A DNA stretch of 40,141 nucleotides from a virus. Each line of letters starts with the position of its first letter. Positions within the stretch are counted from its first letter, which is position 1. The position numbers and the translations under genes were made by a program. This document shows, piece after piece, positions 1 through 40,141 of the stretch. The stretch is taken from the IMG/VR virus record IMGVR_UViG_3300033412_000035; one strand, written 5' to 3'. A model generated the notes under the pieces. That model was not told the DNA's origin, searched no databases, and worked only from the letters and a program-made list of their open reading frames with translations.

Positions 1-126
1 TGTCGGTCGCGTTCGAGGCATTGCCGACGAGCGAGAACTCGCGCAGGAGCGGAGTTGCCACGACCCAGTCGTGGGCGTAGTCCATCATCGTCGGCGCGAT
101 GATGGAGCTGTAGTAGACGTCGTTCG
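1..126. repeat. Terminal overlap, left copy (identical to 40016-40141)
   Basis: tgtcggtcgcgttcgaggcattgccgacg...gtagtagacgtcgttcg is found letter for letter at both window ends. Confidence 0.95.
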
Positions 127-6447: not shown

Positions 6448-7317
6448 TCACATGACGAGCGTACCATCCAGGTCTGGCCTCGTGCGCACGATCCGAGCGA
6501 ACCGGGGCGCGCTGGTGCCCTCGTAGAACCCCTCGCACCGGACCTCGACCATCTGGCCGCGCTCGAGCACCAGCCCCGCGGCCGACACCGCGAACCGGCG
6601 CCCGGCCCAGAGCAGGCTCGCGGCCCGGCCGTCCGAGCTGAGCACGACCGCATCCAGCGTCTCGCTCGGCTTGACCTTGCGCTTGGCCCCGCGCGCGCCG
6701 AGCGGGGCGTCCAGGTTCACCACGACCAGGCCCTCGCCGTCCGATCGCTCGACCCAGTCCGCCCACGCCTCAGCGACGCGACAGGTCGGCCGCTGGTCGA
6801 TGATGGGCGCCACCCGCCAGTCGGTCGGGACCGGGCGACAGAAACGCCCCGTGGATCGGCTGCGCGCCCCGTGGTCGTCCTCGCACCAGGGGAGGCGCGC
6901 GCCGTAGCACTCGACCTCGGACTGGGCACGCCACAGAGCATCGCGCCGGACCGAGTACGGCTCGCGCCCCAGGTACCGGCCGCCGATCCGGATCGCGTCG
7001 AACAGGTGAAGCGCCCGCCACCCGCGCGAGGCCGCGGACCTGTTGCCCGCCTCCGTGTGCGCCTCGAGCTCGCCCACCAGCTCGGAGCCGGGAAGGCCGA
7101 TGCACGCGCCCATGAGGTCAGACACGAGCAAACGAGGGAACGGGCGCGCCGCCCTCGAGTAGAGCTGGGCGATGCGGCCGCGCTGATCGAGGTGGACGCG
7201 CGCATAGACCCCGTCGATCTTCGGCTGCACGACCCAGCGCGGGCCGAGCTCGCGGACGTCGGCGAGGGAGAGACGTCCAGCGGCGCCGGCGTAGTCGATG
7301 GGACGGGTGCGGGTCAT
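6448..7317 (-). CDS. lig: ATP-dependent DNA ligase (minimal NTase + OB type)
   Basis: Motif I QPKIDGVYA (KxDG), motif III LVGELEA, motif IV EGLVVV, motif V KRKVKP, and a C-terminal RFARIVRTRPD. Confidence 0.85.
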   Translation of the reverse strand: MTRTRPIDYAGAAGRLSLADVRELGPRWVVQPKIDGVYARVHLDQRGRIAQLYSRAARPFPRLLVSDLMGACIGLPGSELVGELEAHTEAGNRSAASRGWRALHLFDAIRIGGRYLGREPYSVRRDALWRAQSEVECYGARLPWCEDDHGARSRSTGRFCRPVPTDWRVAPIIDQRPTCRVAEAWADWVERSDGEGLVVVNLDAPLGARGAKRKVKPSETLDAVVLSSDGRAASLLWAGRRFAVSAAGLVLERGQMVEVRCEGFYEGTSAPRFARIVRTRPDLDGTLVM

Positions 7318-7520
7318 GGCATCCGCTCAACCAGTTCCTCGATCTCCATCTCGAGGTTGCGAATATGCCCCACGGCCTCGACCAGGGCGACGGCGAGGTC
7401 TGGGCCTGCCGCGTGGAGCTTCGCGATCGCGTCCGCGTCTCCCCGCTTCGCTCGATCCAGAAGCTTCCGCATCTCCCGAGCGAGGTCGTGGAGGTCCTTG
7501 GGGCCGTCGTTGGCGGTCAT
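7314..7520 (-). CDS. Hypothetical helical protein (68 aa)
   Basis: AGGATGG precedes the internal ATG at 7520. ATGA overlap with the ligase start. The upstream extension to 7646 uses TTA/TTT/AAC codons that are atypical for this genome. Confidence 0.55.
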   Translation of the reverse strand: MTANDGPKDLHDLAREMRKLLDRAKRGDADAIAKLHAAGPDLAVALVEAVGHIRNLEMEIEELVERMP

Positions 7521-7538
7521 GTCACCATCCTGAGACAC

Positions 7539-7550
7539 CTCGAGCTCGAG
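7539..7550. promoter_or_regulatory. Perfect 12-bp palindrome CTCGAGCTCGAG upstream of the ligase sub-operon
   Basis: Read directly. It lies about 20 nt upstream of the ATG at 7520, inside the 281-nt non-coding gap. Confidence 0.3.
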
Positions 7551-7801
7551 CGCAGCGTGACGGCAATGTCGCTCCGATCCGGACCGGCCGCGTAAGGGTA
7601 CCAAAATCCTGTGAAATTCGTTTAAGACCCGAGCTTTGGCGCCCAACTGCGCCGCGCGCGCCGTCGGATCTCGACCCCGTGGGGTCCACCTATCGAACGC
7701 TTGCTCGAGGCGACCGCGTCACCGCTGACACAGCACCAAAAGCAAGGGCCGCCGAGTTTCCCCGACGACACTTGAGCCGACAGCACGCTGCCGGCGGGAA
7801 C

Positions 7802-7972
7802 CTACTTCTTCCGCCGCTCCTTCTCTTTCGCGACGACCCCCATCGCGCGCTCGAGCAGGCGCCTTATGGCCATCAGCTCATCCCCAGAAAGAGCGTGGCC
7901 GTAATGCTTCACGAGTTCTTCCGTCCACTCCGCGATCTCGACCACGCTTGCTGTATCGAAGTCGATCACCAT
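7802..7972 (-). CDS. Hypothetical small protein (56 aa)
   Basis: MVIDFDTASVVEIAEWTEELVKHYGHALSGDELMAIRRLLERAMGVVAKEKERRKK. The ATG lies 1 nt after the TAA of the DGQHR gene. Not in the track. Confidence 0.5.
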   Translation of the reverse strand: MVIDFDTASVVEIAEWTEELVKHYGHALSGDELMAIRRLLERAMGVVAKEKERRKK

Positions 7973-7973
7973 G

Positions 7974-8936
7974 TTAATGAGCCGCCCACGCCGGCGACGG
8001 GAGCATCGGCTTCTTGCCGGTCTCCTGTTCTATTCGCTTGACCACTACATTCTTGATGCGAACGTAGCATGGCGAGCGGTCTCGATCGTTGAGGTTGCGA
8101 CCCACCAACCAATCTACATACCCAGAGTCAGCAGACAGCGACATCAGCGCCTTCCTGAAAAGCTCCGGGGATATGCGCTTGACCCTGCTTTGCGCCGGAA
8201 CTTCTAGAACCAGGCGACGGTAAAGCCACATCGTTATGGTGAGCGACAGGTTGCCCCAGAGCCGAAAGTTCTCGTGGTCGCGACCCCATGCGGCTAGGGC
8301 TATCTGGAGGAACCCCGCAAGCCTTCGGATGTCCTCCTCGCTGGTCTCGCGAGCGACCGACATTGCACTTTCACCGCCTGCGGTCGGGACCTCCTTGGCA
8401 GATGCCGACCAACAACGCAGGACCGCGCTCATACCAAGCAGCGGCGCGTTGGTTCCTCGTCGAATCTGGTCGTATCCAACAAACGGGCACTCCTGGCGCA
8501 GAAGAGATAGCGCACTGAACGCTCCCTCGAGCCCTCGCAGGATGTCATCCGGTCGCATCCGCACGAGTTGCGAGTTGAGATTTACGTACTCCTCCCCCAT
8601 CGCAGCCATGTCCTCAAAATAATGCACTCGAATATCGACATACCCCTCTTCGCACCCGGAAAGCAGAAACGCCTCGCGCCTGTGCTGACCGTCGAGCAGG
8701 TATATTCGCTTTCCAACGATCCCGAGAGTCATCACCCCGGGGATAACCCCATCATCCTGCTTAATGGCATCCGCCACGGAGCGCACTTTCTCGTTGACCC
8801 GTAATGGACGCTGAAACGTAGGAAGCTCCCACGTCCGCACCAGCTCAGGAGTCACTAGAACCGTATCCACGGTAGTCCTTGTCACTCGTTGCGGCGCGCT
8901 ACTCGGTTTGACGATCTTGAGCTGCGGTATAGACAT
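7974..8936 (-). CDS. DGQHR-motif ParB/Srx-superfamily protein (DndB-like), 320 aa
   Basis: AAGGGAGGA lies 6 nt before the ATG at 8936. The sequence KRIYLLDGQHRREAF contains the DGQHR signature. The gene sits in a marked low-GC stretch. Confidence 0.7.
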   Translation of the reverse strand: MSIPQLKIVKPSSAPQRVTRTTVDTVLVTPELVRTWELPTFQRPLRVNEKVRSVADAIKQDDGVIPGVMTLGIVGKRIYLLDGQHRREAFLLSGCEEGYVDIRVHYFEDMAAMGEEYVNLNSQLVRMRPDDILRGLEGAFSALSLLRQECPFVGYDQIRRGTNAPLLGMSAVLRCWSASAKEVPTAGGESAMSVARETSEEDIRRLAGFLQIALAAWGRDHENFRLWGNLSLTITMWLYRRLVLEVPAQSRVKRISPELFRKALMSLSADSGYVDWLVGRNLNDRDRSPCYVRIKNVVVKRIEQETGKKPMLPSPAWAAH

Positions 8937-8980
8937 CGTTGATCCTCCCTTGTTCGAACCCGTGCCGGCCCCACCTTGGC

Positions 8981-9229
8981 TCATCTCGCCGCCCACCTCT
9001 CGCACGGCCCGAGCTGCATGACGCCCGCGACCTTGCCCCAGGTCTGGGCCCGCTCGAGCGCACGCGTGCACAGGCGATAGGAATCGGCGCAACCCATCAT
9101 CTGGTGCGCCTCGCCGTCCTTCACCAGCGCGGGAAAACACCACAAGTTCGGCGCGTCCTCGTGCACGGCGGTGACCGGCAGGCGCGACGCACACGCGGCC
9201 AGGAGCAGGCCGAGGAGCATGAGCCTCAC
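8981..9229 (-). CDS. Small lipoprotein (82 aa)
   Basis: The GTG at 9229 overlaps the VRR-NUC stop (GTGA). The N-terminus VRLMLLGLLLAAC has an LAAC lipobox, and the mature part has four more Cys. Hidden inside track ORF 8981-9610. Confidence 0.6.
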   Translation of the reverse strand: MRLMLLGLLLAACASRLPVTAVHEDAPNLWCFPALVKDGEAHQMMGCADSYRLCTRALERAQTWGKVAGVMQLGPCERWAAR

Positions 9230-9513
9230 GACACCGCCCCCACCGCCTTCAACGCATCCTCCGACGAGTAGACGACCTGGACTGGTAGCGTCGCCTGCTC
9301 GCACGCGAGGAAGAACTCGCGCTGCCCCGGCGACAGGTCCTCGCCCGGGCGCTTGACCTCGAGCAGGTGCCATCGCCCCCTGAAGCCCACGAGGAGGTCG
9401 GGCACGTCCTTGGCCGATATCTGCCACACGAGCGCGCCGGCGATCCTGAGCGCGCGGATGATGCCGGCCTCGTTGGCGTCGCGGCGGGAGGCGTACTTGA
9501 ACGCGTACCTCAC
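9226..9513 (-). CDS. VRR-NUC (PD-(D/E)xK) nuclease
   Basis: AGGAGG lies 5 nt before the GTG at 9513, which overlaps the upstream stop (GTGA). Motifs VPDLLV...HLLEVKRPGEDLSPGQREF. Confidence 0.7.
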   Translation of the reverse strand: MRYAFKYASRRDANEAGIIRALRIAGALVWQISAKDVPDLLVGFRGRWHLLEVKRPGEDLSPGQREFFLACEQATLPVQVVYSSEDALKAVGAVS

Positions 9514-9704
9514 GCCTGCCTCCTGTGCTTCCGCCGCTGCCATGCGTCGCGCGCGTCCCCGAGGCAGGCATGGCATCGGTCGGCGTGCGATGCGGGCGCG
9601 ACGAGGCCATAATCCACGCAGACCTTGGCGTTGCGTCGTCGTGCGCGCAGGGCCCGGACCCGCTCGGTGTTCGTAGCGTGGCGCGTGAAGAACTGTCGTC
9701 GCAT
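9510..9704 (-). CDS. Small Cys/His protein (64 aa)
   Basis: AAAGGAGGGG precedes the ATG at 9704. Contains KVCVDYG...DRCHAC. Confidence 0.55.
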   Translation of the reverse strand: MRRQFFTRHATNTERVRALRARRRNAKVCVDYGLVAPASHADRCHACLGDARDAWQRRKHRRQA

Positions 9705-10268: not shown

Positions 10269-10732
10269 ACGTCCTCCCTGCGCGCCCCGCGCTTCTTCGG
10301 GCCGTCGGACTTCGGGCGCTTGAACATCGCCTCAAGCGCCTCGATCGTGTCTCTGCCACCCGAAAGGCTTCCCAGGAACGCCTTGTCGTGATCGGTCAGC
10401 TCACGCCTGACCTTCGCCGCCCTGATGACCTCCTCGGTCCTGTCCACGAGGTCGCGGAGCCTCTCAGCCTGTTCCCGGTCGAGTCGGTCGTAGCAGTCGG
10501 ACGGGCGCATATAGCCCTTCGCGTCCTCGAGGTAGCGATTGACGCAGACGAGCTTCCCGGGGTCGCCCGGAGCCTGGCGAAGCTTCTCGGTCACGAAGCC
10601 GCAGACAGCGCAAGGCCCGGCCGGACGATCCCGGAGCTGCGGCACCGCTCGCACTGGCCCGCCGGTTCGGTAGCGGTCGGCCCGCCGAGCCGCCAGCATG
10701 TCCGCCTCGAATTCGTCCTCGTCGTCGCTCAC
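10265..10732 (-). CDS. Hypothetical protein (155 aa)
   Basis: Overlaps the replication gene stop by 4 nt. Acidic N-terminus, CAVCG motif. Confidence 0.6.
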   Translation of the reverse strand: MSDDEDEFEADMLAARRADRYRTGGPVRAVPQLRDRPAGPCAVCGFVTEKLRQAPGDPGKLVCVNRYLEDAKGYMRPSDCYDRLDREQAERLRDLVDRTEEVIRAAKVRRELTDHDKAFLGSLSGGRDTIEALEAMFKRPKSDGPKKRGARREDV

Positions 10733-11730
10733 GTTGCGTCACCTCGCCCCAGAAGTTCACGAACCACCCTGCTTGGAGCCGGCGCCGGCGGTCCTGCGCG
10801 CGGCTTCTGCGCGTTCGAGCTGTCGTAGGCGGCCTTCGCCTCGGCCAGGTAGTCCGCGAACTTCTCGGGCCCGAAGAGCGTGGAAGGCCGGAGGTACTCG
10901 TTCATCCGCTCGTCGTCGGACCATCGGTTTGCGCGGTCCCAGACGACCATCCGCAGGTCGAGTTCGCTGTACCCGTCGCGCAAAAGCCGAACGATTCGGC
11001 GAGCGTGTATCAGCGTGGTTGGCCGGTAGTCGCGCCCGCTGCGTTCCGAGAGCTTCCCCAGGACGGCCTCGACGGACGCCTTCTCGTCCGCGGTCGGGTC
11101 GGCTGGCTTTGGCTTCTTGCGCCGATGCCTCGCCTGTCTGACTCCCGTCCCCTCTGCCAGTTCGAAATCGGACGGATCCCCCCCTTTGGGGGGTAAGGGG
11201 GGTTCTGGATCTGGATCTCTTGGAGCAGGAGAAGGAGAAGGAGAAGGAGCGCTGGATTGGGCTGGACGACCGCTGGACGACCGCTGGACGACCGCTGGAC
11301 CGGCTGGGTCCAGCCGGCTGGATGACCGCTGGCTAACCATGCGACCTTTCTCGTCGCGGGTGGCTGTCGCAGCTCGAGCCTTACCGCCGGCCTGTGCGGT
11401 CGATCGGCTGTCCTCGAGCCACTCGATCCGCCCCTCTGTTCCCTTCACCCGCACGTGACGGCACCCGGGCGGGTGTTGGTCGGGCTCCGAGCAGTCCATC
11501 CATTCGCCGAGAGCCGCCTGAACGATGTGGGTAGCCGGATCGTCGCCCTCGAAGAACGCGGCCAGAAAAAAGTACGGGATGTCGTATCTGCATCTCTCCG
11601 TGCACCAGGACCAGACCCGGGCCATCTTGATGAGCGCATGGTCGGAGTCGGCGAGCCCGGCGCGCTTGGCCAGGACGGTAAACCGGGGGTCGGTGAACGC
11701 CTGCGGCTCGATCCTGACTGACGCCCCCAT
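10729..11730 (-). CDS. Replication initiator-like protein with a conserved phage C-terminal domain
   Basis: The C-terminus VEAVLGKLSERSGRDYRPTTLIHARRIVRLLRDGYSELDLRMVVWDRANRWSDDERMNEYLRPSTLFGPEKFADYL matches the phage replication-protein C-terminal domain (TIGR02220-type pattern YLRPxTLF...KF). The central linker is Ser/Pro-rich. Confidence 0.7.
   Translation of the reverse strand: MGASVRIEPQAFTDPRFTVLAKRAGLADSDHALIKMARVWSWCTERCRYDIPYFFLAAFFEGDDPATHIVQAALGEWMDCSEPDQHPPGCRHVRVKGTEGRIEWLEDSRSTAQAGGKARAATATRDEKGRMVSQRSSSRLDPAGPAVVQRSSSGRPAQSSAPSPSPSPAPRDPDPEPPLPPKGGDPSDFELAEGTGVRQARHRRKKPKPADPTADEKASVEAVLGKLSERSGRDYRPTTLIHARRIVRLLRDGYSELDLRMVVWDRANRWSDDERMNEYLRPSTLFGPEKFADYLAEAKAAYDSSNAQKPRAGPPAPAPSRVVRELLGRGDAT
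11178..11340. repeat. Iteron-like repeat field inside the replication gene (candidate ori)
   Basis: C7-TTT-G6 inverted repeat (11178-11193), CTGGAT x2, GGAGAA x3.5, and GCTGG(A) starting at 11251, 11261, 11272, 11283, 11294, 11303, 11317 and 11328 (mostly 11-nt phasing). Also a 12-bp palindrome CCAGCCGGCTGG at 11310-11321. Confidence 0.55.
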
Positions 11731-12495: not shown

Positions 12496-12729
12496 TTAGC
12501 CCGCCTGCCGGATCTGGCCCCAGAAAACCTCGAGCGTGATGCCGCAGGCGCGGCAGAACGCAGCAAGGTTCTCGTGTGAGGGCTCGGAGCGACCCGAGAA
12601 CCAGAAGGAAACCGCAGAGTCGGTTACGCCGCAGAGCTCAGCAATGACCGTCTGCCGAAGACCGGCCTGCCCAGCGAAGTGCTCTAGGCGCTCACGAATA
12701 TTGAGCGCCTCGGGTTTTACTTGACTCAC
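12496..12729 (-). CDS. XRE/Cro-CI family HTH regulator (77 aa), candidate prophage repressor
   Basis: LRQTVIAELCGVTDSAVSFWFSGRSEPSHENL is a typical HTH_3 core. The gene is monocistronic and divergent from the early-right operon. GTG start. Confidence 0.75.
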   Translation of the reverse strand: MSQVKPEALNIRERLEHFAGQAGLRQTVIAELCGVTDSAVSFWFSGRSEPSHENLAAFCRACGITLEVFWGQIRQAG

Positions 12730-12748
12730 AGGGCATTCTTAACAGACC

Positions 12749-12776
12749 CTCTAATTTAGCGTCAATCAAATTAGAG
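12749..12776. promoter_or_regulatory. Operator candidate: 9-bp inverted repeat CTCTAATTT-N10-AAATTAGAG
   Basis: Read directly in the AT-richer gap between the divergent HTH genes. TTGACG lies on the minus strand inside the spacer. Confidence 0.55.
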
Positions 12777-12812
12777 CCCTGCTTGAGACATGCTGCGCTA
12801 TCCCTGGTCGGA

Positions 12813-13154
12813 ATGGACGACCGCTCAGAGCGGGTACTCGTCGCCACCAAAGACTGGCGGGTGAAGGCGAAAGAGGCGTTTAGAAGCCTTAAACGTGGCT
12901 CTATGGCCGAATGCGCAAGGGAGATCGGCTGCAGCCAGGCCCTCGTCAACAAAATTCTGTCAGGGGAGATCGTCACCTCCGAGATGGTGGGGCCGATCTC
13001 CGATTGGCTGAGGGCGAAAGGGGCTGAGGTGCCACGCCCGCAAGCCGAGATTTCCTCGGAAGCCCAGCGCGAGCTTCTAGACGAGGCTCGTCGCCTCGAC
13101 CCCGAGTCATTCCAGAAGCTGCTTGAGTTTATTCGAGCTGTTCGCCGTCGGTAG
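12813..13154 (+). CDS. Cro-like HTH regulator (113 aa from ATG 12813; 123 aa if from TTG 12783)
   Basis: MAECAREIGCSQALVNKILSGE is an HTH-like core. First gene of the early-right operon. Confidence 0.6.
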   Translation: MDDRSERVLVATKDWRVKAKEAFRSLKRGSMAECAREIGCSQALVNKILSGEIVTSEMVGPISDWLRAKGAEVPRPQAEISSEAQRELLDEARRLDPESFQKLLEFIRAVRRR

Positions 13155-13231
13155 TAGCGAACACCACAGAAACACCTGCCGGTAGGCATTATGTTGTCCG
13201 ACGGGTGCTGGTCCACGACCGAGAGCGCGAC

Positions 13232-13369
13232 ATGAGGGAACTCGAGGAGCATGTACGCGAGCTCTGGGACGAGGAACCAGCGCTCATCGAGGTCGCGCTC
13301 AAGTACGCACGACTCCTGGCGCGAGATGCCCGGGAGCGATTCTTGAGAAAGGGTCAAGTTTGCGCTTGA
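13232..13369 (+). CDS. Possible small helical protein (45 aa)
   Basis: MRELEEHVRELWDEEPALIEVALKYARLLARDARERFLRKGQVCA. GC3-rich codons but a weak RBS. Not in the track. Confidence 0.3.
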   Translation: MRELEEHVRELWDEEPALIEVALKYARLLARDARERFLRKGQVCA

Positions 13370-13408
13370 CCTGAGGTGCCATTCTTGAGTATCGGTTAAG
13401 TCACCGAT
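13339..13408 (+). promoter_or_regulatory. Repeat and hairpin cluster before gene 13407
   Basis: ATTCTTGAG at 13339 and 13381 flank the hairpin GGTCAAG-tttgcg-CTTGACC (13352-13371). A second hairpin, ATCGGT-taagtc-ACCGAT (13391-13408), covers the ATG at 13407. Confidence 0.35.
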
Positions 13409-13715
13409 GCAAGAGAATCACCGGCCGCCTACACCGTCCACCGTTACCACCCGCGCCCTCGCCGGCGCCGCCTCCGAGCTGGCTGAGTCCCGCCACACGA
13501 TGGAGGCGGCCGGCTCGGTCATCGACGTCTTGGTCCAGCAACGGGACTTCTACCGCGCCGGGATGGCCGAAGCCGACCGGTCCGCCAAGAACTACCAGGC
13601 GGCCGGGCTCGCGCTCCTGGGCCTGCTCGGGGACCGACTCCCGCTGCGGACGGCGGAGGCCCGTGAGGTCTTCGAGGCGGCCCGCGACGCGCTCCTGAAC
13701 AAGGTGCGGCCGTGA
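13407..13715 (+). CDS. Hypothetical protein (102 aa)
   Basis: Track ORF. Helical. The next gene overlaps it by GTGA. Confidence 0.55.
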   Translation: MQENHRPPTPSTVTTRALAGAASELAESRHTMEAAGSVIDVLVQQRDFYRAGMAEADRSAKNYQAAGLALLGLLGDRLPLRTAEAREVFEAARDALLNKVRP

Positions 13716-14202: not shown

Positions 14203-14419
14203 CCAACTATCGTCGGGACCCGAAGTACCTCACCACCTGCGAGGTCTGCGGCCAGGGGATCGTGCCGTGGAATGGGGGTACCTCGTCGCCGTGTGCCGTC
14301 GCTCTCCGCTCGCCGGCCGAGGGGAGGGCTCCGGCGCCGAGCGCGTCTGCGGCCCACGGTGCGGCGCGTCGTACGCCGTGAAAGCCATACGAAGGCTCGA
14401 GGAGGAGACCAAGAGATGA
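14199..14419 (+). CDS. Zinc-ribbon protein split over two frames (needs a -1 shift or one extra G at 14274-14278)
   Basis: The 5' part, [26 protein letters not shown], starts by ATGA coupling at 14199. The 3' part, ...[46 protein letters not shown], ends by ATGA coupling with recT at 14416-14419 in the -1 frame. Confidence 0.5.
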
Positions 14420-15204
14420 GCGAGGCACTCCAGAAATCAGTGATCGGTCGCGATCAGATTGAACTGGTCAAGACGACAATCTGCCGCGGCTCCACCGACG
14501 ACGAGCTCCAGCTCTTCGTTGCCACATGCAACCGCCTCGGACTCGACCCGTTCGCGCGACAGGTGTTCGCCGTCAAGCGATGGGACTCGAAGCTCAAGCA
14601 AGAGGTGATGGCCATCCAGACCAGCATCGACGGCTATCGTCTGGTCGCCGCGCGAACCGGCCAGTACGACGGACAGGAGGGTCCGTACTGGTGCGGTGAC
14701 GACGGCCAGTGGCATGACGTCTGGCTCAGCAAGTCGTCGCCGCGCGCAGCCAAGGTCGTCGTCTACCGCAAGGGCTGTAGCCATCCGTTCCCCGGAATCG
14801 CGCACTGGTCGAGTTACGTCGCCACGACCAAGGAGGGAACTCCGACCACGATGTGGCAGAGGATGCCCGAGGTGATGCTCGGGAAATGCGCCGAGGCGCT
14901 AGCGCTTCGCAAGGCGTTCCCGGCTGAGCTGTCTGGCGTCTACACCAGGGAGGAGATGGAGCAGTCTGATAACGAGCCTCTGCCGCGGGGCCTGCGAGTG
15001 GTCCATCGCGAGGCGACGACGGATGTTGACCAGGCTCCTCTCGAGGATCGCATCCTCGCGGCTACAACCCTGGACGACCTCGGGAGACTCGTCGGTGAAC
15101 TGAAGCGAGCCGATGCCGATACCCGAGAGCGGCTGCGCCCGATCTACACGCAGCGGCGCGCGGAGCTGCTCCAGGCGGAGACGAAGAGGGATCCGGCCCC
15201 ATGA
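14416..15204 (+). CDS. recT: RecT-family single-strand annealing recombinase
   Basis: GGAGGAGA precedes the ATG at 14416. Motifs [31 protein letters not shown] and [16 protein letters not shown]. Confidence 0.85.
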
Positions 15205-17993: not shown

Positions 17994-19004
17994 ATGCGAC
18001 AACGACGAAAGCGAGGACGAGTCTATGGACCTTACGAGGAGCCCGGGGGGTGGCGCGTCGTCGTCATCAACGCCAAGGGCGAGCGCACTAGTGCGACGTT
18101 TGCGCGAGAAAGAGAGGCAGTCGCGGAGCGGCTCGCCGCCGAACGCGAGCTCGAGACCGAGGTCATCACGGTGAGCCAGGCCTTGGTCAAGTATGAGGAG
18201 TACCAGGTCGCCAAGGGGAACAAGCCCCGGTCGATCGCGACCACCAAGGAGCGCCTGCGCAGCCTGCTGCGGGACCAGGAGGAGTGCCTCGTGGACCTCA
18301 CCCCTGCCCGCTGCCAGCGCCTCTACGACGACTTGGCGGCCCGGGTGGCGGTGGATACCCATCGCAACACATTGAACCAGGCGCGGACCTTCTTCCGGTG
18401 GGCGGAGAAACGCGGCTTCGTTCGGGCGAACCCGCTAGCGTCGGTGGACGGCATCGGCCGGCGCAGGCGCGGCAAGCCCCAGCTCAGGATCGACGAGGCG
18501 CGGGCGTTCGTGTCGGTGGCGGCCGCGATGGCACGGGCGGGCGATCGTGGAGCCCTGGGAGCCCTCATGGCGCTCCTGATGGGGATGCGAGCGAGCGAGA
18601 TTCTGCGGCTGGAGGCGCGCGACGTGGACGACGCGGGCCGGGTCATCTGGATCGACGACGCCAAGACCGAGGCCGGCCGGCGGACCCTGTACGTCCCGCC
18701 GGAGCTGACCGACCTGCTCAAGGCGGCGGCGGCCGAGGGCGGGCAGCTCTTACCGACCCAGGAGCACCAGTGGCTCAACCGGCAGGTACGCCACCTCTGC
18801 GGGCTGGCGGGCGTTCCACGGGTCTGCACCCACGGCCTGCGCGGGACCCACGCGACGCTGGGCACCGAGTTCGGGTCGTCGTCCCTGGTCGTCTCACAGG
18901 CGCTCGGGCACGCCAGCGAGGACATCACGCGGGCCCACTACACGCTGCCGGAAGCCTCGGCGGCAGCGGTCCAGCGGCGGGTCACCCTGAGGCTCAAGGA
19001 GTAG
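17994..19004 (+). CDS. int: Tyrosine integrase
   Basis: N-terminus RGRVYGPYEEPGGWRVVV. Catalytic-region motifs MGMRASEIL, HGLRGTHAT and LGHASEDITRAHY. Confidence 0.9.
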   Translation: MRQRRKRGRVYGPYEEPGGWRVVVINAKGERTSATFAREREAVAERLAAERELETEVITVSQALVKYEEYQVAKGNKPRSIATTKERLRSLLRDQEECLVDLTPARCQRLYDDLAARVAVDTHRNTLNQARTFFRWAEKRGFVRANPLASVDGIGRRRRGKPQLRIDEARAFVSVAAAMARAGDRGALGALMALLMGMRASEILRLEARDVDDAGRVIWIDDAKTEAGRRTLYVPPELTDLLKAAAAEGGQLLPTQEHQWLNRQVRHLCGLAGVPRVCTHGLRGTHATLGTEFGSSSLVVSQALGHASEDITRAHYTLPEASAAAVQRRVTLRLKE

Positions 19005-20096: not shown

Positions 20097-21178
20097 CCAC
20101 CGACACCAAGCACCTGCGCGCGTTGCTCGAGGCGGCGACGCCGGGGCCGTTCGAGCCCGGGGTCTGCTTCGACGACGACAAGGACAAGGCGCGCGACGTC
20201 TACCTCGCGATGTTCGACGCAGGCACGCGGGACCACTTCTTCAACGTCTACCCGGTGCCGCAGGACGAGCGGATGCTGGCGATCGCGGTCACCGGCAACG
20301 GGCCATTCAGCGATGCAAACGCGCGCCTCATCGCCGCGCTCTTGACCGCCGCGCCGGGCATGATCGAGGAGCTGGAGCGGCTGCGGACTGAGGCCGAGGA
20401 GCGCGCGGACTCCGAAGCTGCACGGTGGCAGCGGCGAATCGAGGACACGATCGCCAGGGCCGGCCTCGAGCCCTTCGACGCCAGCGGCAACGAGAGCGGC
20501 GATCCGCTCGACTGGACCGACGACCAGGTTGGTCATGCGCTCGAGACATTGCGCGAGGAGCTGTCGGGTTGCGAGGGCAAGTACATGGCGCAACGTGCGC
20601 TCAAAGAGGAGGCGCAGGCCGAGCGCGACCAGCTCCGGGCCGAGGTCGAGCGGCTGCGTGACATCCTGCGCGCCCATGAGGAGGACATGAATCTCACGCT
20701 TGAGGAACTGGCCGGCAAGGCGAACGAGCTCCAAGTCGAGCGCGACCAGCTCCGGGCCGAGGTGGAACGGCTACGGCAGTTTGGTGCCGCCTATGACGAC
20801 GAGGGGCATCGTCGTGATATGCGAATCGCGGAACTCGAGGCCGAGGTCGCTCGCCTCAACGACGACCGCCTCACCTGCGAGAAGCGCATCCAGGAGCACA
20901 CGGGCGAGCGCAACGAGGCGCGGGCCGAGGTCGAGCGGCTGCGCAGCAAGGTCACGCGGATGATCGATGCAGCCGACCCATTCATCACCGGCGCCGAGGC
21001 CGAGCGGGACCGCCTGCGGGTGGCGCTGGAGAAGTATGGGACGCATCTCGCCATCCGATCCGAGCGGAGAGACTCGTATGGCATCGTGCACGTGGGCAGC
21101 GTTCCGTGTCCTGGGTTGGCCGGCGGCGAGTGCCTCTGCGGCTTCATTGCGGCCATCGCCGGCAAGGCGTCCCCATGA
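20093..21178 (+). CDS. Ead/Ea22-like coiled-coil protein (361 aa)
   Basis: N-terminus LRALLEAATPGPFEPG...NARLIAALLTAAPGMIEELERLR. Long heptad-like region with ERDQLRAEVERLR twice. Confidence 0.6.
   Translation: MTTDTKHLRALLEAATPGPFEPGVCFDDDKDKARDVYLAMFDAGTRDHFFNVYPVPQDERMLAIAVTGNGPFSDANARLIAALLTAAPGMIEELERLRTEAEERADSEAARWQRRIEDTIARAGLEPFDASGNESGDPLDWTDDQVGHALETLREELSGCEGKYMAQRALKEEAQAERDQLRAEVERLRDILRAHEEDMNLTLEELAGKANELQVERDQLRAEVERLRQFGAAYDDEGHRRDMRIAELEAEVARLNDDRLTCEKRIQEHTGERNEARAEVERLRSKVTRMIDAADPFITGAEAERDRLRVALEKYGTHLAIRSERRDSYGIVHVGSVPCPGLAGGECLCGFIAAIAGKASP
20621..20775 (+). repeat. Intragenic direct repeats encoding ERDQLRAEVERLR
   Basis: gagcgcgaccagctccgggccgaggt occurs at 20621 and 20738. 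A partial third copy, cgggccgaggtcgagcggctgcg, lies at 20921. Confidence 0.8.
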
Positions 21179-21705
21179 CCCGCGCCATCGCCGCCACGCT
21201 CGCCTCTGCCCGGGTCAAGAACTCGACCGCGCGCGACGACTGGCAGACGCCGCCGAAGGTCCTGGAGCGGGTGCGGATGGTCGGCCCGATCGTGCTCGAT
21301 CCGTGCACCTCGGAGGATAACCCGGTCGGCGCATCGTTCGCGCTCACCGAGCGGCAGGATGGCCTCGCGGTCGATTGGGCCGACGTGCTCGACGATGACA
21401 TTTACAGCGGCCTCGTCTTCGCAAATTTCCCCTACTCCCGCGCCAAACTATGGGCCGCCAAGATCGTCGAGGAGTCTACCTGTGGACTGGAGATCGTGAC
21501 CCTCTGCGCGGCCCGCCCGGACTCGCGTTGGTTCTTCAACCTGGTGTGGGACAGCGCGCAGGCGGTCTGCTTCTACCGGGGACGCCTGCGCTTCGTGGGC
21601 GCACCGAGCTCGGCCCCCTTCCCTTCGGCGCTCGTCTACCACGGGCCGTGCCCATGGGCCTTCGAGGCCGCGTTCGCCGACGCCGGGAAGGTCATCCGAC
21701 TGTGA
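21175..21705 (+). CDS. Phage Dam-type N6-adenine DNA methyltransferase
   Basis: ATGA overlap upstream. Motifs DDWQTPPKVLERV, LDPCTS, and FANFPYS (an NPPY-like motif). Confidence 0.75.
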   Translation: MTRAIAATLASARVKNSTARDDWQTPPKVLERVRMVGPIVLDPCTSEDNPVGASFALTERQDGLAVDWADVLDDDIYSGLVFANFPYSRAKLWAAKIVEESTCGLEIVTLCAARPDSRWFFNLVWDSAQAVCFYRGRLRFVGAPSSAPFPSALVYHGPCPWAFEAAFADAGKVIRL

Positions 21706-39221: not shown

Positions 39222-40141
39222 TCAGGCGTCGGTCACGATCTTGGTGTGGGCGGCGTCGAAGATTTCGCCCACGCCAGCGCGCATCGACGCGACGTACTCG
39301 GTGGCGCGCAGCGAGGCGTCCCGCTGGGTCTCGAGGCGGAACATGCGCTTCCAGACGATGCCCAGAGCCGCCATCGGGTCGTTGCCCGGGCCCGAGTGGA
39401 CCAGGCAGTCACCGACCACGTCGGCGCCCGCGTTGGCGGTGTCGGTCAGGCCCGCCGACCAGACCGGGTAGCCGCGGAAGAACAGCACCAGGCCATTGGT
39501 CATGCCGTTGTTCGGGCCAATGTTGGCGCCGAGGATCCGGTCGGTCGCCGTGGCATAGGTCGCGACCGAGGTGCTGGTCGCGGTGAGCGCGCCTTCGAGG
39601 TCGTTGACCTGCTGCTCGTCGAGCACGTAGGTCACGCCGTCCGGCGCGCGCACGCCGCGGGTGCGGATGCCGACCTGGGCCGCGAGCATCTGCGCGACGG
39701 TCAGATCCACGCCCGTGCTGCCGACACTGTTGGAGGCGTTCGCGAAGGTCGCCGCGACGTCGTCCTCGAGCGCGGTCATCAGGATCCGGGTCGAGTTGCC
39801 CAGCACGAGGCGGAGCCAGTCGATCCCGTCGATCGAATCCTCGTAGACGTTGTCGGTGATGGTCACCATGACCCCGTACTCCGAGGCGGTGAGCGTCACC
39901 TTGTTGGTCGAGAGCTGGGTGTTGCCGAGGTCGGTCGCCTCCGTGGCGTTGAACTCGGTGTCCACGCCGGTACCGCCGTCGCCGACGGTGCCCATGTTCG
40001 AGGCGAGCGACCAGATGTCGGTCGCGTTCGAGGCATTGCCGACGAGCGAGAACTCGCGCAGGAGCGGAGTTGCCACGACCCAGTCGTGGGCGTAGTCCAT
40101 CATCGTCGGCGCGATGATGGAGCTGTAGTAGACGTCGTTCG
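39222..40141 (-). CDS. Major capsid protein (HK97-fold type), 5' end continues at 154-1
   Basis: 315 aa in total. It follows the scaffold gene. The Thr/Ala/Gly-rich composition and the layout (...TLTASEYGVMVTITDN...) are typical of phage major capsid proteins. Call rests on position and general resemblance. Confidence 0.7.
   Translation of the reverse strand, partial: NDVYYSSIIAPTMMDYAHDWVVATPLLREFSLVGNASNATDIWSLASNMGTVGDGGTGVDTEFNATEATDLGNTQLSTNKVTLTASEYGVMVTITDNVYEDSIDGIDWLRLVLGNSTRILMTALEDDVAATFANASNSVGSTGVDLTVAQMLAAQVGIRTRGVRAPDGVTYVLDEQQVNDLEGALTATSTSVATYATATDRILGANIGPNNGMTNGLVLFFRGYPVWSAGLTDTANAGADVVGDCLVHSGPGNDPMAALGIVWKRMFRLETQRDASLRATEYVASMRAGVGEIFDAAHTKIVTDA
40016..40141. repeat. 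Terminal overlap, right copy (identical to 1-126)
   Basis: Same 126 nt as the window start. It lies inside the capsid gene, so it looks like an assembly or circularisation overlap rather than a packaging repeat. Confidence 0.95.

What the first reader, a model, noticed from the sequence alone, without database searches (positions are those of the whole stretch)
7590..8950. Sharp low-GC island carrying a DndB-like DGQHR protein plus a 56-aa partner ORF
**Seen directly.**
- Hand counts of 60-nt lines give 32/60 G+C at 8041-8100 and 28/60 at 8581-8640, against 46/60 at 9001-9060 just outside.
- The island holds a 320-aa ORF with a very strong RBS (AAGGGAGGA).
- That ORF has the signature LLDGQHRREAF. 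The DGQHR motif defines the DndB / DGQHR branch of the ParB/Srx superfamily, which is associated with DNA phosphorothioation and 7-deazaguanine clusters.
- A 56-aa ORF starts 1 nt after its stop.
- A 281-nt AT-richer non-coding stretch follows.

**Inference.** This looks like a horizontally acquired cassette. There are no dnd or dpd partner genes here, so an orphan phage DndB-like protein could be a DNA-binding regulator, a counter-defence factor against modification-based host systems, or a partition-type protein.
Basis: partly seen in the sequence, partly recalled or inferred. Interest (0 to 1): 0.65.

Follow-up and report, generated by a model that had tools for sequence, protein, structure and literature searches.

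The report
Acquired orphan ParB-like DGQHR phage gene
A temperate phage carries, in a stretch of foreign-looking low-GC DNA, a stand-alone nucleotide-switch-type (ParB/sulfiredoxin-fold) protein from a large, unnamed, phage-only family; it is a distant cousin of DndB, not DndB itself, and its small "partner" gene has no support.

Summary
The 320-aa ORF (7974-8936, minus strand), its AAGGGAGGA ribosome-binding site, the LLDGQHRREAF motif, the abutting 56-aa ORF, the 281-nt gap and all three hand GC counts check out. The low-GC core (7864-8958, 57.5% vs 68% GC) is the strongest compositional anomaly in a complete circular 40-kb temperate phage genome.

- **What the protein is.** It has a ParB/Srx-fold N-domain with all three DGQHR-domain motifs. 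It fails every curated model for DGQHR, DndB, DpdB, DUF262 and ParBc.
- **Its family.** It belongs to a distinct, highly conserved family (at least 1,461 clusters at 90% identity). The family is known almost only from metagenomic phage contigs and is absent from the cultured-phage and plasmid collections.
- **Its C-domain.** The confidently modelled, strongly basic C-terminal domain has no fold match among solved structures.
- **Acquisition.** Horizontal acquisition is supported. GC3 lies 4.2 SD below the other genes, orthologues elsewhere match their flanks, and distant relatives of this phage lack the gene.
- **The 56-aa ORF.** It has no homologue anywhere and is not a conserved partner.

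The most likely mechanism is an NTP-gated DNA-associated switch acting early in infection. This is inferred, not shown. The best functional lead is a link to DNA methyltransferases.

The parts
7974..8936 (-). 320-aa stand-alone DGQHR-motif ParB/Srx-fold protein. The N-domain spans about residues 20-125 (FQRP, DGQHRREAF, E116...N121). A novel basic helical C-domain spans about residues 128-320.
   Evidence: ORF and translation. Family alignment A1 with invariant Q42 R43 D82 G83 H85 R86 E116. AF2 pLDDT 86.7. Foldseek hits to ParB-N, Noc, PadC and Srx. C-domain pLDDT 92.7 with no PDB match.
8943..8951 (-). Shine-Dalgarno sequence AAGGGAGGA, 6 nt upstream of the ATG at 8936
   Evidence: Read directly from the sequence
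7802..7972 (-). 56-aa ORF abutting the stop codon (TAA-C-ATG). It is helical, with an acidic N-terminus and a basic C-terminus. It is an ORFan, and its status as a real gene or partner is unproven.
   Evidence: GC3 0.79, GC2 0.33. Only itself found among 5.8e9 proteins. No tblastn match in 50+ family loci.
7738..7769 (-). Terminator-like hairpin (9 pairs, 6 G-C) followed by CCTTGCTTTT, 33 nt after the 56-aa ORF. It probably marks the end of the transcription unit and the left end of the cassette.
   Evidence: Consensus scan. The same hairpin appears in the MFE fold. It is a pattern match only.
7864..8958 (.). Core of the low-GC segment (57.5% GC)
   Evidence: Likelihood-ratio segmentation: LLR 27.3 against a shuffle maximum of 13.3
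7521..7801 (.). 281-nt non-coding stretch (64.4% GC). It contains the terminator-like hairpin. It probably belongs to the phage backbone as a regulatory region upstream of the 68-aa and ligase unit, not to the island.
   Evidence: no Rfam family; fold z = -1.6. Relatives have comparable gaps, and L055 shares a GGGCGCCAAA motif with the window's gap.

Best explanation
The 320-aa gene encodes a stand-alone member of an unnamed, phage-borne branch of the ParB/sulfiredoxin superfamily. This phage acquired it horizontally as a roughly 1.2-kb unit (RBS, gene, ORFan, terminator-like hairpin). The unit sits in the variable slot between the Holliday-junction nuclease and the ligase, at the end of the early replication operon.

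**Proposed mechanism**
- The N-domain binds a nucleoside triphosphate. The proposed pocket is formed by the QR pair (FQRP), the DGQHRxxA loop (the GxxRxxA equivalent) and the E116/N121 helix.
- NTP binding and hydrolysis switch the protein, probably as a dimer, between states.
- The strongly basic, family-specific helical C-domain holds DNA.
- The protein acts on phage DNA during early replication and recombination. The DNA transaction it controls is unknown. The best lead is cooperation with, or control of, a DNA methyltransferase.

**Shown**
- The fold, the motifs, the family and its distribution, the orphan status and the compositional foreignness.

**Inferred**
- NTP binding, dimerisation, DNA binding and the biological role.

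**My split confidence**
- Identity as an orphan DGQHR-type ParB/Srx protein of a distinct phage family: about 0.85.
- Horizontal acquisition: about 0.75.
- NTP-gated DNA-associated switch: about 0.35-0.4.
For: **Fold**
- AF2 model with pLDDT 86.7.
- Foldseek matches pNOB8 ParB-N, Noc, CDP/CTP-bound ParB, PadC, Srx and SbnI/SerK at probability 0.97-1.0.
- Viral DUF262-only and DndB-annotated proteins match over the full length, TM up to 0.5.

**Motifs**
- Q42, R43, D82, G83, H85, R86 and E116 are invariant. Q84, A89 and N121 are conserved in at least 90% of 29 sequences that share only about 55-63% identity.
- These correspond to the QR / DGQHR / FxxxN trio (PMC4619093) and to GxxRxxA (PMC10164549).
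- 19 of 29 members weakly hit TIGR03187.

**C-domain**
- Net charge about +9 and pI about 9.3 across the family.
- pLDDT 92.7.

**Context**
- 37 loci lie in phage replication, recombination and nucleotide modules (RecT, ERF, YqaJ, NinB, PolA, DnaB, dNK, NT5C, NUDIX, UDG) with no conserved neighbour.
- MTase-related genes lie immediately upstream in four lineages.

**Acquisition**
- See, and the absence of the gene from relatives.

**Precedent**
- ParB, DpdB, DndB and the 5mYOX-associated ParB are NTP-binding DNA-transaction regulators (PMC12704722, PMC10164549, PMC13229309).
Against: - No biochemical data exist for any member.
- Sequence-level links to characterised families are all below threshold. 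hhalign against a Spo0J sequence recalled from memory was not significant.
- No HTH or other known DNA-binding fold was recognised in the C-domain.
- No conserved flanking DNA site was found.
- In the 5mYOX-associated ParB, mutating the NTP-pocket residues had little effect (PMC13229309). Motif conservation therefore does not prove NTP dependence.
- Many invariant acidic residues (D24, D82, D101, D130, D131) would also fit a catalytic role.
- The relatives used for the presence/absence test are distant (ligase 57-61% identical) and differ across the whole module.
Confidence: 0.5

Rival explanations
1. Accessory or activator of a DNA-modifying enzyme. The protein loads on DNA and stimulates or regulates a phage DNA methyltransferase, in the way DpdB assists DpdA or phage ParB176 activates its thymine dioxygenase. 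In this phage the partner would be the orphan Dam-like enzyme. This is a specific version of the switch model rather than a contradiction of it.
For: - Characterised DGQHR/DGQQR-branch relatives mostly work with DNA modification: DndB, DpdB, SspE and GmrSD.
- ParB-MTase fusions are common in phages (PMC12704722).
- ParB-dependent 5mYOX enzymes exist (PMC13229309).
- The gene immediately upstream is a MT-A70 methyltransferase gene in L001, apparently with a ParB-like N-terminal part. It is a ParB-N protein in L012. It is a domain shared with CcrM-like MTases in L011, L026, L028 and L030. It is an N6_N4 MTase overlapping the start in the P0004 contig.
- The window encodes a Dam-family MTase (PF05869, E = 4.4e-16; ORF 21106-21705).
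Against: - Most loci (about 30 of 38) have no adjacent MTase.
- MTases are common accessory genes in phage early regions anyway, and no background rate was measured.
- In this phage the only MTase is 12 kb away in another operon.
- No dnd, dpd, TGT or TET/JBP genes were found.
Confidence: 0.2
2. Defence or counter-defence factor. One version is a moron-like gene that protects the lysogen, as a DUF262-type sensor would. The other is a protein that neutralises a host modification-based system (Dnd, Ssp or Dpd), for example by occupying modified DNA.
For: - It is an accessory, horizontally moving gene in variable positions.
- Structural relatives include the GmrSD, BrxU and SspE-type NTPase domains.
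- One close homologue lies about 2 kb from a Hachiman (HamA + DEAD helicase) locus.
Against: - There is no PADLOC hit.
- No nuclease or other effector domain or partner was found.
- No own promoter was detected.
- Conservation is unusually high (55-63% identity) across phages binned with many bacterial phyla. This is atypical for host-specific arms-race proteins.
- The gene is embedded in replication and recombination operons.
Confidence: 0.12
3. An enzyme rather than a switch. It would be either a ParB-like nuclease acting on host or replicating DNA, or an Srx/SerK/SbnI-like phosphotransferase in nucleotide metabolism.
For: - Many acidic and basic residues are invariant in the N-domain and at the domain junction: D24, D82, D101, R103, E116, D130 and D131.
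- Foldseek also hits SbnI, SerK and Srx.
- dNK, NT5C and NUDIX genes are neighbours in some loci.
- Nuclease activity has been reported for some ParB/Srx proteins (PMC4619093).
Against: - No nuclease motif (HNH or EHxxP) is present.
- Fold matches to the kinases cover only the shared roughly 85-residue core.
- The neighbour associations are sporadic.
Confidence: 0.08
4. The low GC does not reflect recent transfer. It would be an intrinsic or selected property of the gene (amino-acid composition or expression tuning), and the gene is old in this lineage.
For: - The immunity region is equally low in GC without needing transfer.
- No donor is known: the best homologue is only 63% identical.
- The relatives available for comparison are distant.
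Against: - The deficit is at synonymous sites (GC3 0.664, z = -4.2).
- Orthologues in 36 other loci have the GC of their flanks and a GC3 of 0.68-0.95 that tracks the host genome.
- The right boundary is sharp and intergenic.
Confidence: 0.1

Closest known systems
DndB / DGQHR-domain proteins (TIGR03187, TIGR03233, PF14072)
   Same: - The QR, DGQHR and FxxxN motifs are shared.
- The size (about 320-360 aa) and the layout (ParB/Srx N-domain plus helical C-domain) are similar.
- 19 of 29 family members give weak TIGR03187 hits.
   Different: - Scores are far below the cut-offs: 14 bits against 58.85. There are no hits to the curated DndB models.
- No dndACDE genes are present.
- The gene is phage-borne and stand-alone.
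- A profile search finds only 346 representatives, so the family does not merge with the large DndB/DGQHR families.
DpdB (NF041060), the ATPase partner of the DpdA transglycosylase
   Same: ParB-fold N-domain with a DGQxR motif, a helical C-domain, and a predicted dimeric DNA-encircling ATPase (PMC10164549).
   Different: - Only 1 of 29 members hits NF041060, at E = 0.031.
- No dpdA or preQ0 genes are present.
DUF262 / GmrSD_N NTPase domain (PF03235; GmrSD, BrxU, SspE)
   Same: - It belongs to the same superfamily branch.
- There are sub-threshold PF03235 hits in several members.
- Full-length structural similarity exists to viral DUF262-only proteins, TM 0.46-0.50.
   Different: - The motif is DGQHR, not DGQQR.
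- There is no DUF1524 or HNH nuclease domain.
- The score is 13 bits against a cut-off of 33.2.
- BrxU matches only at probability 0.10.
Orphan phage ParB-CTPase-fold proteins (Kaljevic et al. 2025, PMC12704722) and 5mYOX-activating phage ParBs (PMC13229309)
   Same: It is a stand-alone ParB-fold protein on a mobile element with no ParA, and it sits near DNA-modification genes in some genomes.
   Different: - It does not hit PF02195, the model those surveys used.
- It is absent from INPHARED, one of their phage sources.
- It has a different C-terminal domain.
Canonical ParB / Noc / KorB CTP-dependent DNA clamps
   Same: They are the best PDB fold matches for the N-domain, and GxxRxxA maps onto DGQHRxxA.
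   Different: No HTH DNA-binding domain, C-terminal dimerisation domain, ParA or parS was recognised. Sequence similarity is not significant.

Membership tests
DGQHR domain (TIGR03187) | [quoted passage not shown] | tested here: met
   FQ42R43P, D82-G-Q-H-R86 and (F/Y)117-V-N-L-N121 are conserved in 29 aligned members. The motif definition comes from PMC4619093.
DGQHR domain (TIGR03187) | Score at or above the curated cut-off (58.85 bits) | tested here: not met
   14 bits, E = 0.032, covering only residues 67-107. The best of 29 relatives reaches E = 2.3e-4.
DndB (curated NCBIfam DndB models, e.g. TIGR03233; Pfam PF14072) | Match to the DndB family model | tested here: not met
   No NCBIfam DndB model hit at E <= 0.1. 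No PF14072 hit at E <= 1.
DndB / Dnd system | Encoded with dndCDE (and dndA/iscS), whose expression it regulates | tested here: not met
   PHROG and Pfam scans of about 45 ORFs of the complete circular genome found no dnd genes. None were found among 127 neighbours in 33 other loci.
DpdB (NF041060) / Dpd system | Match to the DpdB model and linkage to dpdA and 7-deazaguanine synthesis genes | tested here: not met
   1 of 29 members hits at E = 0.031. No TGT or Que genes are in the window or among the neighbours.
DUF262 / GmrSD_N (PF03235) | Score at or above the gathering threshold (33.2 bits) and a DGQQR motif, usually with a DUF1524/HNH domain | tested here: not met
   13.1 bits, E = 0.11. 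The motif is DGQHR. No nuclease domain is present, and the C-domain has no PDB match.
ParB/Srx fold superfamily | ParB/sulfiredoxin alpha/beta core with a GxxRxxA-type nucleotide loop | tested here: met
   Foldseek against the PDB gives probability 0.97-1.0 to ParB-N, Noc, PadC and Srx, best E = 3.6e-4. G83-x-x-R86-x-x-A89 is present.
Canonical ParB (PF02195 / TIGR00180, ParABS) | ParBc model match, an HTH domain, and a ParA partner with parS sites | tested here: not met
   No PF02195 hit at E <= 1. No ParA is in the genome. No conserved flanking site was found. An integrase is present.
ParB-CTPase-type NTP switch (functional class) | Binds and hydrolyses an NTP, with NTP-dependent N-domain dimerisation on DNA | not testable with these tools
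   This needs DRaCALA or ITC, NTPase assays and cross-linking. Only motif conservation is available.

The most novel reading that the evidence does not exclude
This is the first look at a phage-specific, deeply conserved family that joins a ParB/Srx NTP-binding module to a previously unseen basic helical domain. The family would form a new class of NTP-gated DNA clamp or regulator that many soil and freshwater phages use to control a DNA transaction, possibly methylation or recombination. It is independent of ParA, Dnd or Dpd. It was missed by the published ParB-fold survey read here, because that survey's search models do not detect it and its phage sources (INPHARED, Gut Phage Database) are unlikely to contain it.
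Probability: 0.3. Interest if true: 0.65.

Novelty: new variant of a known kind. Interest (0 to 1): 0.42.

Why it matters
ParB-fold NTP switches are now known to work well beyond chromosome segregation. Examples are DpdB, DndB, KorB and the phage activators of thymine dioxygenases. Surveys so far rely on Pfam ParBc and on cultured-phage collections. This family has at least 1,461 clusters at 90% identity and about 55-63% identity across phages assigned to many bacterial phyla. It has no Pfam, PHROG or NCBIfam model and no member in INPHARED or PLSDB.

It offers a compact, very conserved and well-modelled protein on which to test three things:
- which nucleotide a DGQHR pocket binds;
- what the new C-domain does;
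- whether orphan DGQHR proteins in phages work with DNA methyltransferases.

For this window alone, the result is modest. It is an ordinary acquired accessory gene in a mosaic temperate phage.

Tried and rejected
**Looking for a known family**
- Sequence searches against solved structures, with the single protein and with the family profile, found nothing relevant.
- PADLOC gave no defence-system hit.
- tblastn against INPHARED phages and PLSDB plasmids found no family member.
The only aligned stretch put DGQHRREA on AGERRFRA. I treat this as a lead only.

**Looking for a fused domain**
- Members with N-terminal extensions showed only DUF7694 in one protein, possibly a merged gene call. One protein has an internal duplication of the N-domain.

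**Looking for a conserved partner**
- BLAST clustering of all ORFs within 5 kb in 37 loci found no neighbour family in more than 5 loci.
- The 56-aa, 68-aa and lipoprotein products have no match in any family locus.

**Looking for a DNA or RNA element**
- The k-mer census of 1.5-kb flanks showed only generic GC-rich words, so no conserved DNA site was found.
- In 7200-9400, Rfam gave only one chance-level hit, and the 281-nt gap folds no better than shuffles (z = -1.6).
- No flanking direct or inverted repeats suggest transposition or site-specific insertion.

**Looking for close relatives of this phage**
- The best ligase homologue among 5.8 billion proteins is 61% identical, so the presence/absence test rests on distant relatives.

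**Other**
- The window's own contig could not be looked up.
- The 406-aa extension of the ORF (GTG at 9194) was rejected. It overlaps the lipoprotein gene, and homologues start at the ATG at 8936.
Full report
**1. Setting**

The window is a complete, circularly assembled phage genome. Its first and last 126 nt are identical.

It is about 68% GC and has the genes of a temperate tailed phage:
- an integrase (17994-19004, +);
- RecT (14272-15204, +);
- an amidase endolysin;
- a major-head-like protein (39222-40103, -);
- a replication initiator (10729-11730, -);
- a VRR-NUC nuclease (9226-9576, -);
- a short ATP-dependent ligase (6448-7317, -).

The finding lies at the end of the leftward early operon. 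The order on the minus strand is: replication initiator, a 155-aa gene, VRR-NUC, a small putative lipoprotein (8981-9229), the 320-aa gene, the 56-aa ORF, a 281-nt gap, a 68-aa ORF, the ligase, and then the terminase- and portal-like genes.

**2. The observation**

- The three hand counts are exact (32/60, 28/60 and 46/60).
- The ORF runs 7974-8936 on the minus strand and is 320 aa.
- AAGGGAGGA lies 6 nt before its ATG.
- LLDGQHRREAF is present.
- The 56-aa ORF begins one base after the stop codon.
- 281 nt without a credible ORF follow.

Homologues align from residue 1, which supports this start. An automatic call of 267 aa is too short, and the 406-aa ORF that overlaps the lipoprotein gene is too long.

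The GC dip is well beyond chance.
- A likelihood-ratio segmentation finds 7864-8958 (57.5% GC) with LLR 27.3. The maximum in 200 shuffles is 13.3.
- This is the lowest 1,460-nt stretch of the genome, about 4 SD below the mean.
- The deficit is at synonymous sites. GC3 is 0.664 against 0.876 +/- 0.051 in 32 other genes (z = -4.2), below the lowest of them at 0.749.
- The right edge is sharp and lies in the 44-nt spacer before the gene. The left edge fades across the 56-aa ORF and the gap.

Two qualifications apply.
- The 281-nt stretch is only slightly AT-richer (64.4% GC).
- A second island of equal depth (12597-13420) covers two divergent HTH genes, which is the immunity switch.

**3. What the protein is**

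Curated models do not recognise it.

| Model | Result | Cut-off |
|---|---|---|
| TIGR03187 (DGQHR) | 14 bits, E = 0.032, residues 67-107 only | 58.85 bits |
| PF03235 (GmrSD_N) | 13 bits | 33.2 bits |
| phrog_1033 (ParB-like) | E = 1.9e-4 | none curated |
| Curated DndB models (NCBIfam; Pfam PF14072), DpdB, ParBc (PF02195) | no hit for this protein | - |
| PADLOC models | no hit | - |
| PDB sequences | nothing relevant | - |

The fold is nevertheless clear.
- An AlphaFold2 model built on 29 homologues has a mean pLDDT of 86.7.
- Foldseek matches its N-domain to pNOB8 ParB-N, Noc, CDP/CTP-bound ParB, PadC, sulfiredoxin and SbnI/SerK with probability 0.97-1.0.
- In the viral structure library it matches an uncultured-phage homologue (33% identity). 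Over the full length (TM 0.44-0.50) it matches DUF262-only proteins and 'sulfur-modification'-annotated proteins.

The three motifs that define the DGQHR domain are all present and nearly invariant. The definition (a QR pair, DGQHR and FxxxN) comes from PMC4619093.
- QR pair: FQ42R43P.
- DGQHR: D82-G-Q-H-R86, followed by A89, which also gives GxxRxxA.
- FxxxN: (F/Y)117-VNL-N121, preceded by the invariant E116.

By analogy with ParB, Srx, SspE and DpdB, these positions line the nucleotide pocket (PMC10164549). That mapping is by analogy and was not tested here.

The C-terminal two-thirds (residues 128-320) were modelled alone.
- The model is very confident (pLDDT 92.7, pTM 0.89).
- It has no significant match in the PDB (best E = 2.3, TM <= 0.26). 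This includes the HTH domains of ParB and the C-domains of SspE and BrxU.
- It carries a net charge of about +9 in every member (family pI about 9.3).
- It is rich in invariant Trp, Arg and Asp residues, for example AWGRD, DWLVGR and RDRSPxYxRxK.

**4. The family**

| Search | Result |
|---|---|
| 5.8 billion proteins (clusters at 90% identity) | 1,461 clusters at E <= 1e-3; the best 120 are full-length, 54-63% identical and almost all unnamed |
| Family profile against 1.84 billion representatives at 50% identity | 346 hits, of which 186 at E <= 1e-30 |
| 185,579 species genomes | 10 loci, all on MAG contigs |
| IMG/VR viral contigs | 38 loci, about 31 of them near-full-length family members |
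| INPHARED phages | no member |
| PLSDB plasmids | no member |

The profile result means the family is sharply bounded. It does not merge into the very large DndB, DUF262 or ParB families.

The ten MAG contigs are assigned to Gemmatimonadaceae, Blastocatellia, Verrucomicrobiota, Burkholderiales, Rhizobiaceae, Patescibacteria, Actinomycetes and others. The gene is therefore essentially a phage gene of uncultured phages, mostly from GC-rich genomes.

Other phage DGQHR-motif proteins recovered by the same pattern scan are also unassigned by Pfam. Phages therefore carry a cloud of such orphans.

**5. Context**

In 37 loci the gene lies co-oriented inside early, replication and recombination modules. 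The neighbours include RecT, ERF, Mgm101, YqaJ, NinB, DUF3799, PolA, DnaB, DnaA_C, RusA-type genes, dNK, NT5C, NUDIX, UDG, HTH regulators and integrases.

No neighbour family recurs in more than 5 loci. No dnd, dpd, TGT or ParA genes appear.

One pattern stands out: the gene immediately upstream is methyltransferase-related in four lineages.
- In L001 it is a MT-A70 methyltransferase gene, apparently with a ParB-like N-terminal part.
- In L012 it is a ParB-N protein homologous to part of the L001 protein.
- In L011, L026, L028 and L030 it is a 211-238-aa protein whose core is shared with the CcrM-like MTases of Sinorhizobium and Rhizobium phages.
- In the contig of P0004, one of the closest homologues, it is an N6_N4 MTase overlapping the start.

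MTases also lie within 8 kb in several further loci. The window phage has a Dam-family MTase (PF05869, E = 4.4e-16; ORF 21106-21705 with LDPC...NFPYS). It is 12 kb away in another operon.

I did not measure a background rate, so this is a lead and not a result.

**6. The '56-aa partner' and the gap**

The 56-aa ORF has a coding-like codon-position GC pattern and was called as a gene. Against that:
- it has no homologue at all among 5.8 billion proteins;
- it has no tblastn match in any family locus;
- the genes that follow family members elsewhere are unrelated to it and to each other.

It is therefore not a conserved partner. It may be a lineage-specific small gene or not a gene at all.

A terminator-like hairpin with a T-run (7769-7738, minus strand) follows it by 33 nt. 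No sigma-70-like promoter precedes the cassette, so it is probably read through from the early operon.

The rest of the gap resembles the backbone. Distant relatives also have 126-415-nt gaps upstream of the ligase unit. L055 shares a GGGCGCCAAA motif with the window's gap, and L055 and L056 both carry an A-rich tract at the matching position.

**7. Was it acquired?**

- In 36 other loci the orthologue has the GC of its flanks (mean difference -0.005). Its GC3 is 0.68-0.95 and tracks the genome. Only in this window is it 10 points lower than its surroundings.
- The composition fits a donor of roughly 57-59% GC.
- The closest relatives of this phage that exist in the databases share the ligase (57-61% identity), the 238-aa protein, and the terminase- and portal-like genes. 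In the corresponding slot they carry RusA plus unrelated small genes. They have no DGQHR gene, no 56-aa ORF, no 68-aa ORF and no lipoprotein.
- These relatives are distant and the whole module is mosaic. This supports an accessory, exchangeable gene but does not date the event.
- No donor was found. The best homologue is 63% identical.
- No flanking repeats mark an insertion mechanism.

**8. How it most likely works**

Shown:
- a ParB/Srx N-domain with the DGQHR motif set intact and under strong constraint;
- a novel, strongly basic helical domain;
- stand-alone status;
- residence in phage DNA-metabolism modules;
- high conservation across phages of many hosts.

Inferred:
- the N-domain binds and probably hydrolyses an NTP. 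Specificity cannot be predicted; DndB-like proteins bind ATP and GTP, and ParB binds CTP (PMC12704722);
- nucleotide state controls self-association;
- the C-domain binds DNA.

The high conservation points to a universal substrate, DNA or a nucleotide, rather than a host-specific protein. That is why I rank the DNA-associated switch above a defence or counter-defence role.

The DNA transaction it serves is unknown. The superfamily precedents are DndB, DpdB, ParB-MTase fusions and the ParB-dependent thymine dioxygenases (PMC13229309). Together with the upstream MTase-related neighbours, they make DNA modification the best guess.

One caution comes from PMC13229309: pocket mutations there did not abolish function. 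Conserved motifs therefore do not guarantee an NTP requirement.

**9. Comparison and novelty**

In layout and motifs the protein resembles DndB, DpdB and DUF262-type proteins. It is not a member of any of those families, because model thresholds and genomic linkage were tested and not met (see the membership table).

The kind, an orphan ParB-fold protein on a mobile element, is known. This family, its C-domain and its absence from all curated libraries are not described in the papers I could search.

I rate it a new variant of a known kind. It is of moderate interest as a family and of low-to-moderate interest as a feature of this one phage.

Noticed in passing
window 1-126 and 40016-40141: The first and last 126 nt are identical. 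The window is a circularly assembled, complete phage genome of about 40.0 kb, so the absence of genes can be stated for the whole genome.
   Followed up: yes
window 12597-13420: A second low-GC island (57.6% GC, LLR 20.1) covers two divergently transcribed HTH genes (12496-12729 minus, 77 aa; 12783-13154 plus, 123 aa). This is probably the CI/Cro-type immunity switch between the leftward and rightward early operons.
   Followed up: partly
window 8981-9229 (-): A small ORF with a lipobox-like start (VRLMLLGLLLAAC...) lies between VRR-NUC and the DGQHR gene, at backbone GC (about 70%). It is a putative phage lipoprotein with no Pfam hit and no match in related loci.
   Followed up: partly
window 21106-21705 (+): ORF with ...DWQTPP...LDPC...NFPYS..., consistent with the Dam-family N6-adenine methyltransferase hit (PF05869, E = 4.4e-16) found in the genome-wide census. 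It lies just before the endolysin and overlaps the long form of the endolysin ORF. The assignment of the Pfam hit to this ORF is by eye, not by a per-protein scan.
   Followed up: partly
window 7974-8936 (-): The protein on record for this gene is a 267-aa N-terminally truncated call (P0001, 83% coverage). Homologues and the strong RBS support the 320-aa start at 8936.
   Followed up: yes
window 7521-7700; L055:9750-10010; L056:9570-10010: The gap upstream of the 68-aa and ligase unit shares a GGGCGCCAAA motif with L055. An AT-richer tract in the window (CTTAAACGAATTTCACAGGATTTTGG) lies where L055 and L056 both have GAAAAAACCCCAACAATT. This may be a conserved promoter or regulatory region at the early-late boundary.
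   Followed up: partly
L001:4797-5984 and L012:7318-7998, immediately upstream of the family gene: A canonical ParB-N-domain gene (in L001 apparently fused to MT-A70) directly precedes the DGQHR-family gene, giving two different ParB-fold proteins in tandem. P0325 (442 aa) carries an internal duplication of the N-domain with a degenerate first copy (LDGVLR).
   Followed up: partly
L011:7267-7980, L026:1673-2320, L028:7230-7934, L030:7352-7984: The 211-238-aa proteins just upstream of the family gene share a ...RLADEYDAAQERGE... domain. In Sinorhizobium phages phi2LM21 and phi3LM21 and in Rhizobium phage PPF1, this domain is an internal part of annotated CcrM-like DNA methyltransferases.
   Followed up: partly
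contig of P0004 (JGI 3300078620; no DNA held): One of the closest homologues sits after an N6_N4 methyltransferase and about 2 kb from a convergent DEAD-helicase plus HamA pair (a Hachiman-type defence locus), next to an Amidase_2 endolysin.
   Followed up: no
window 6448-7317 (-): The ATP-dependent DNA ligase is very short (289 aa) and below Pfam and NCBIfam cut-offs (PF01068 18.6 bits; phrog_114 E = 4.7e-14). It defines a family of about 186 proteins found on roughly 30-40-kb phage contigs that share the packaging module with this phage.
   Followed up: partly
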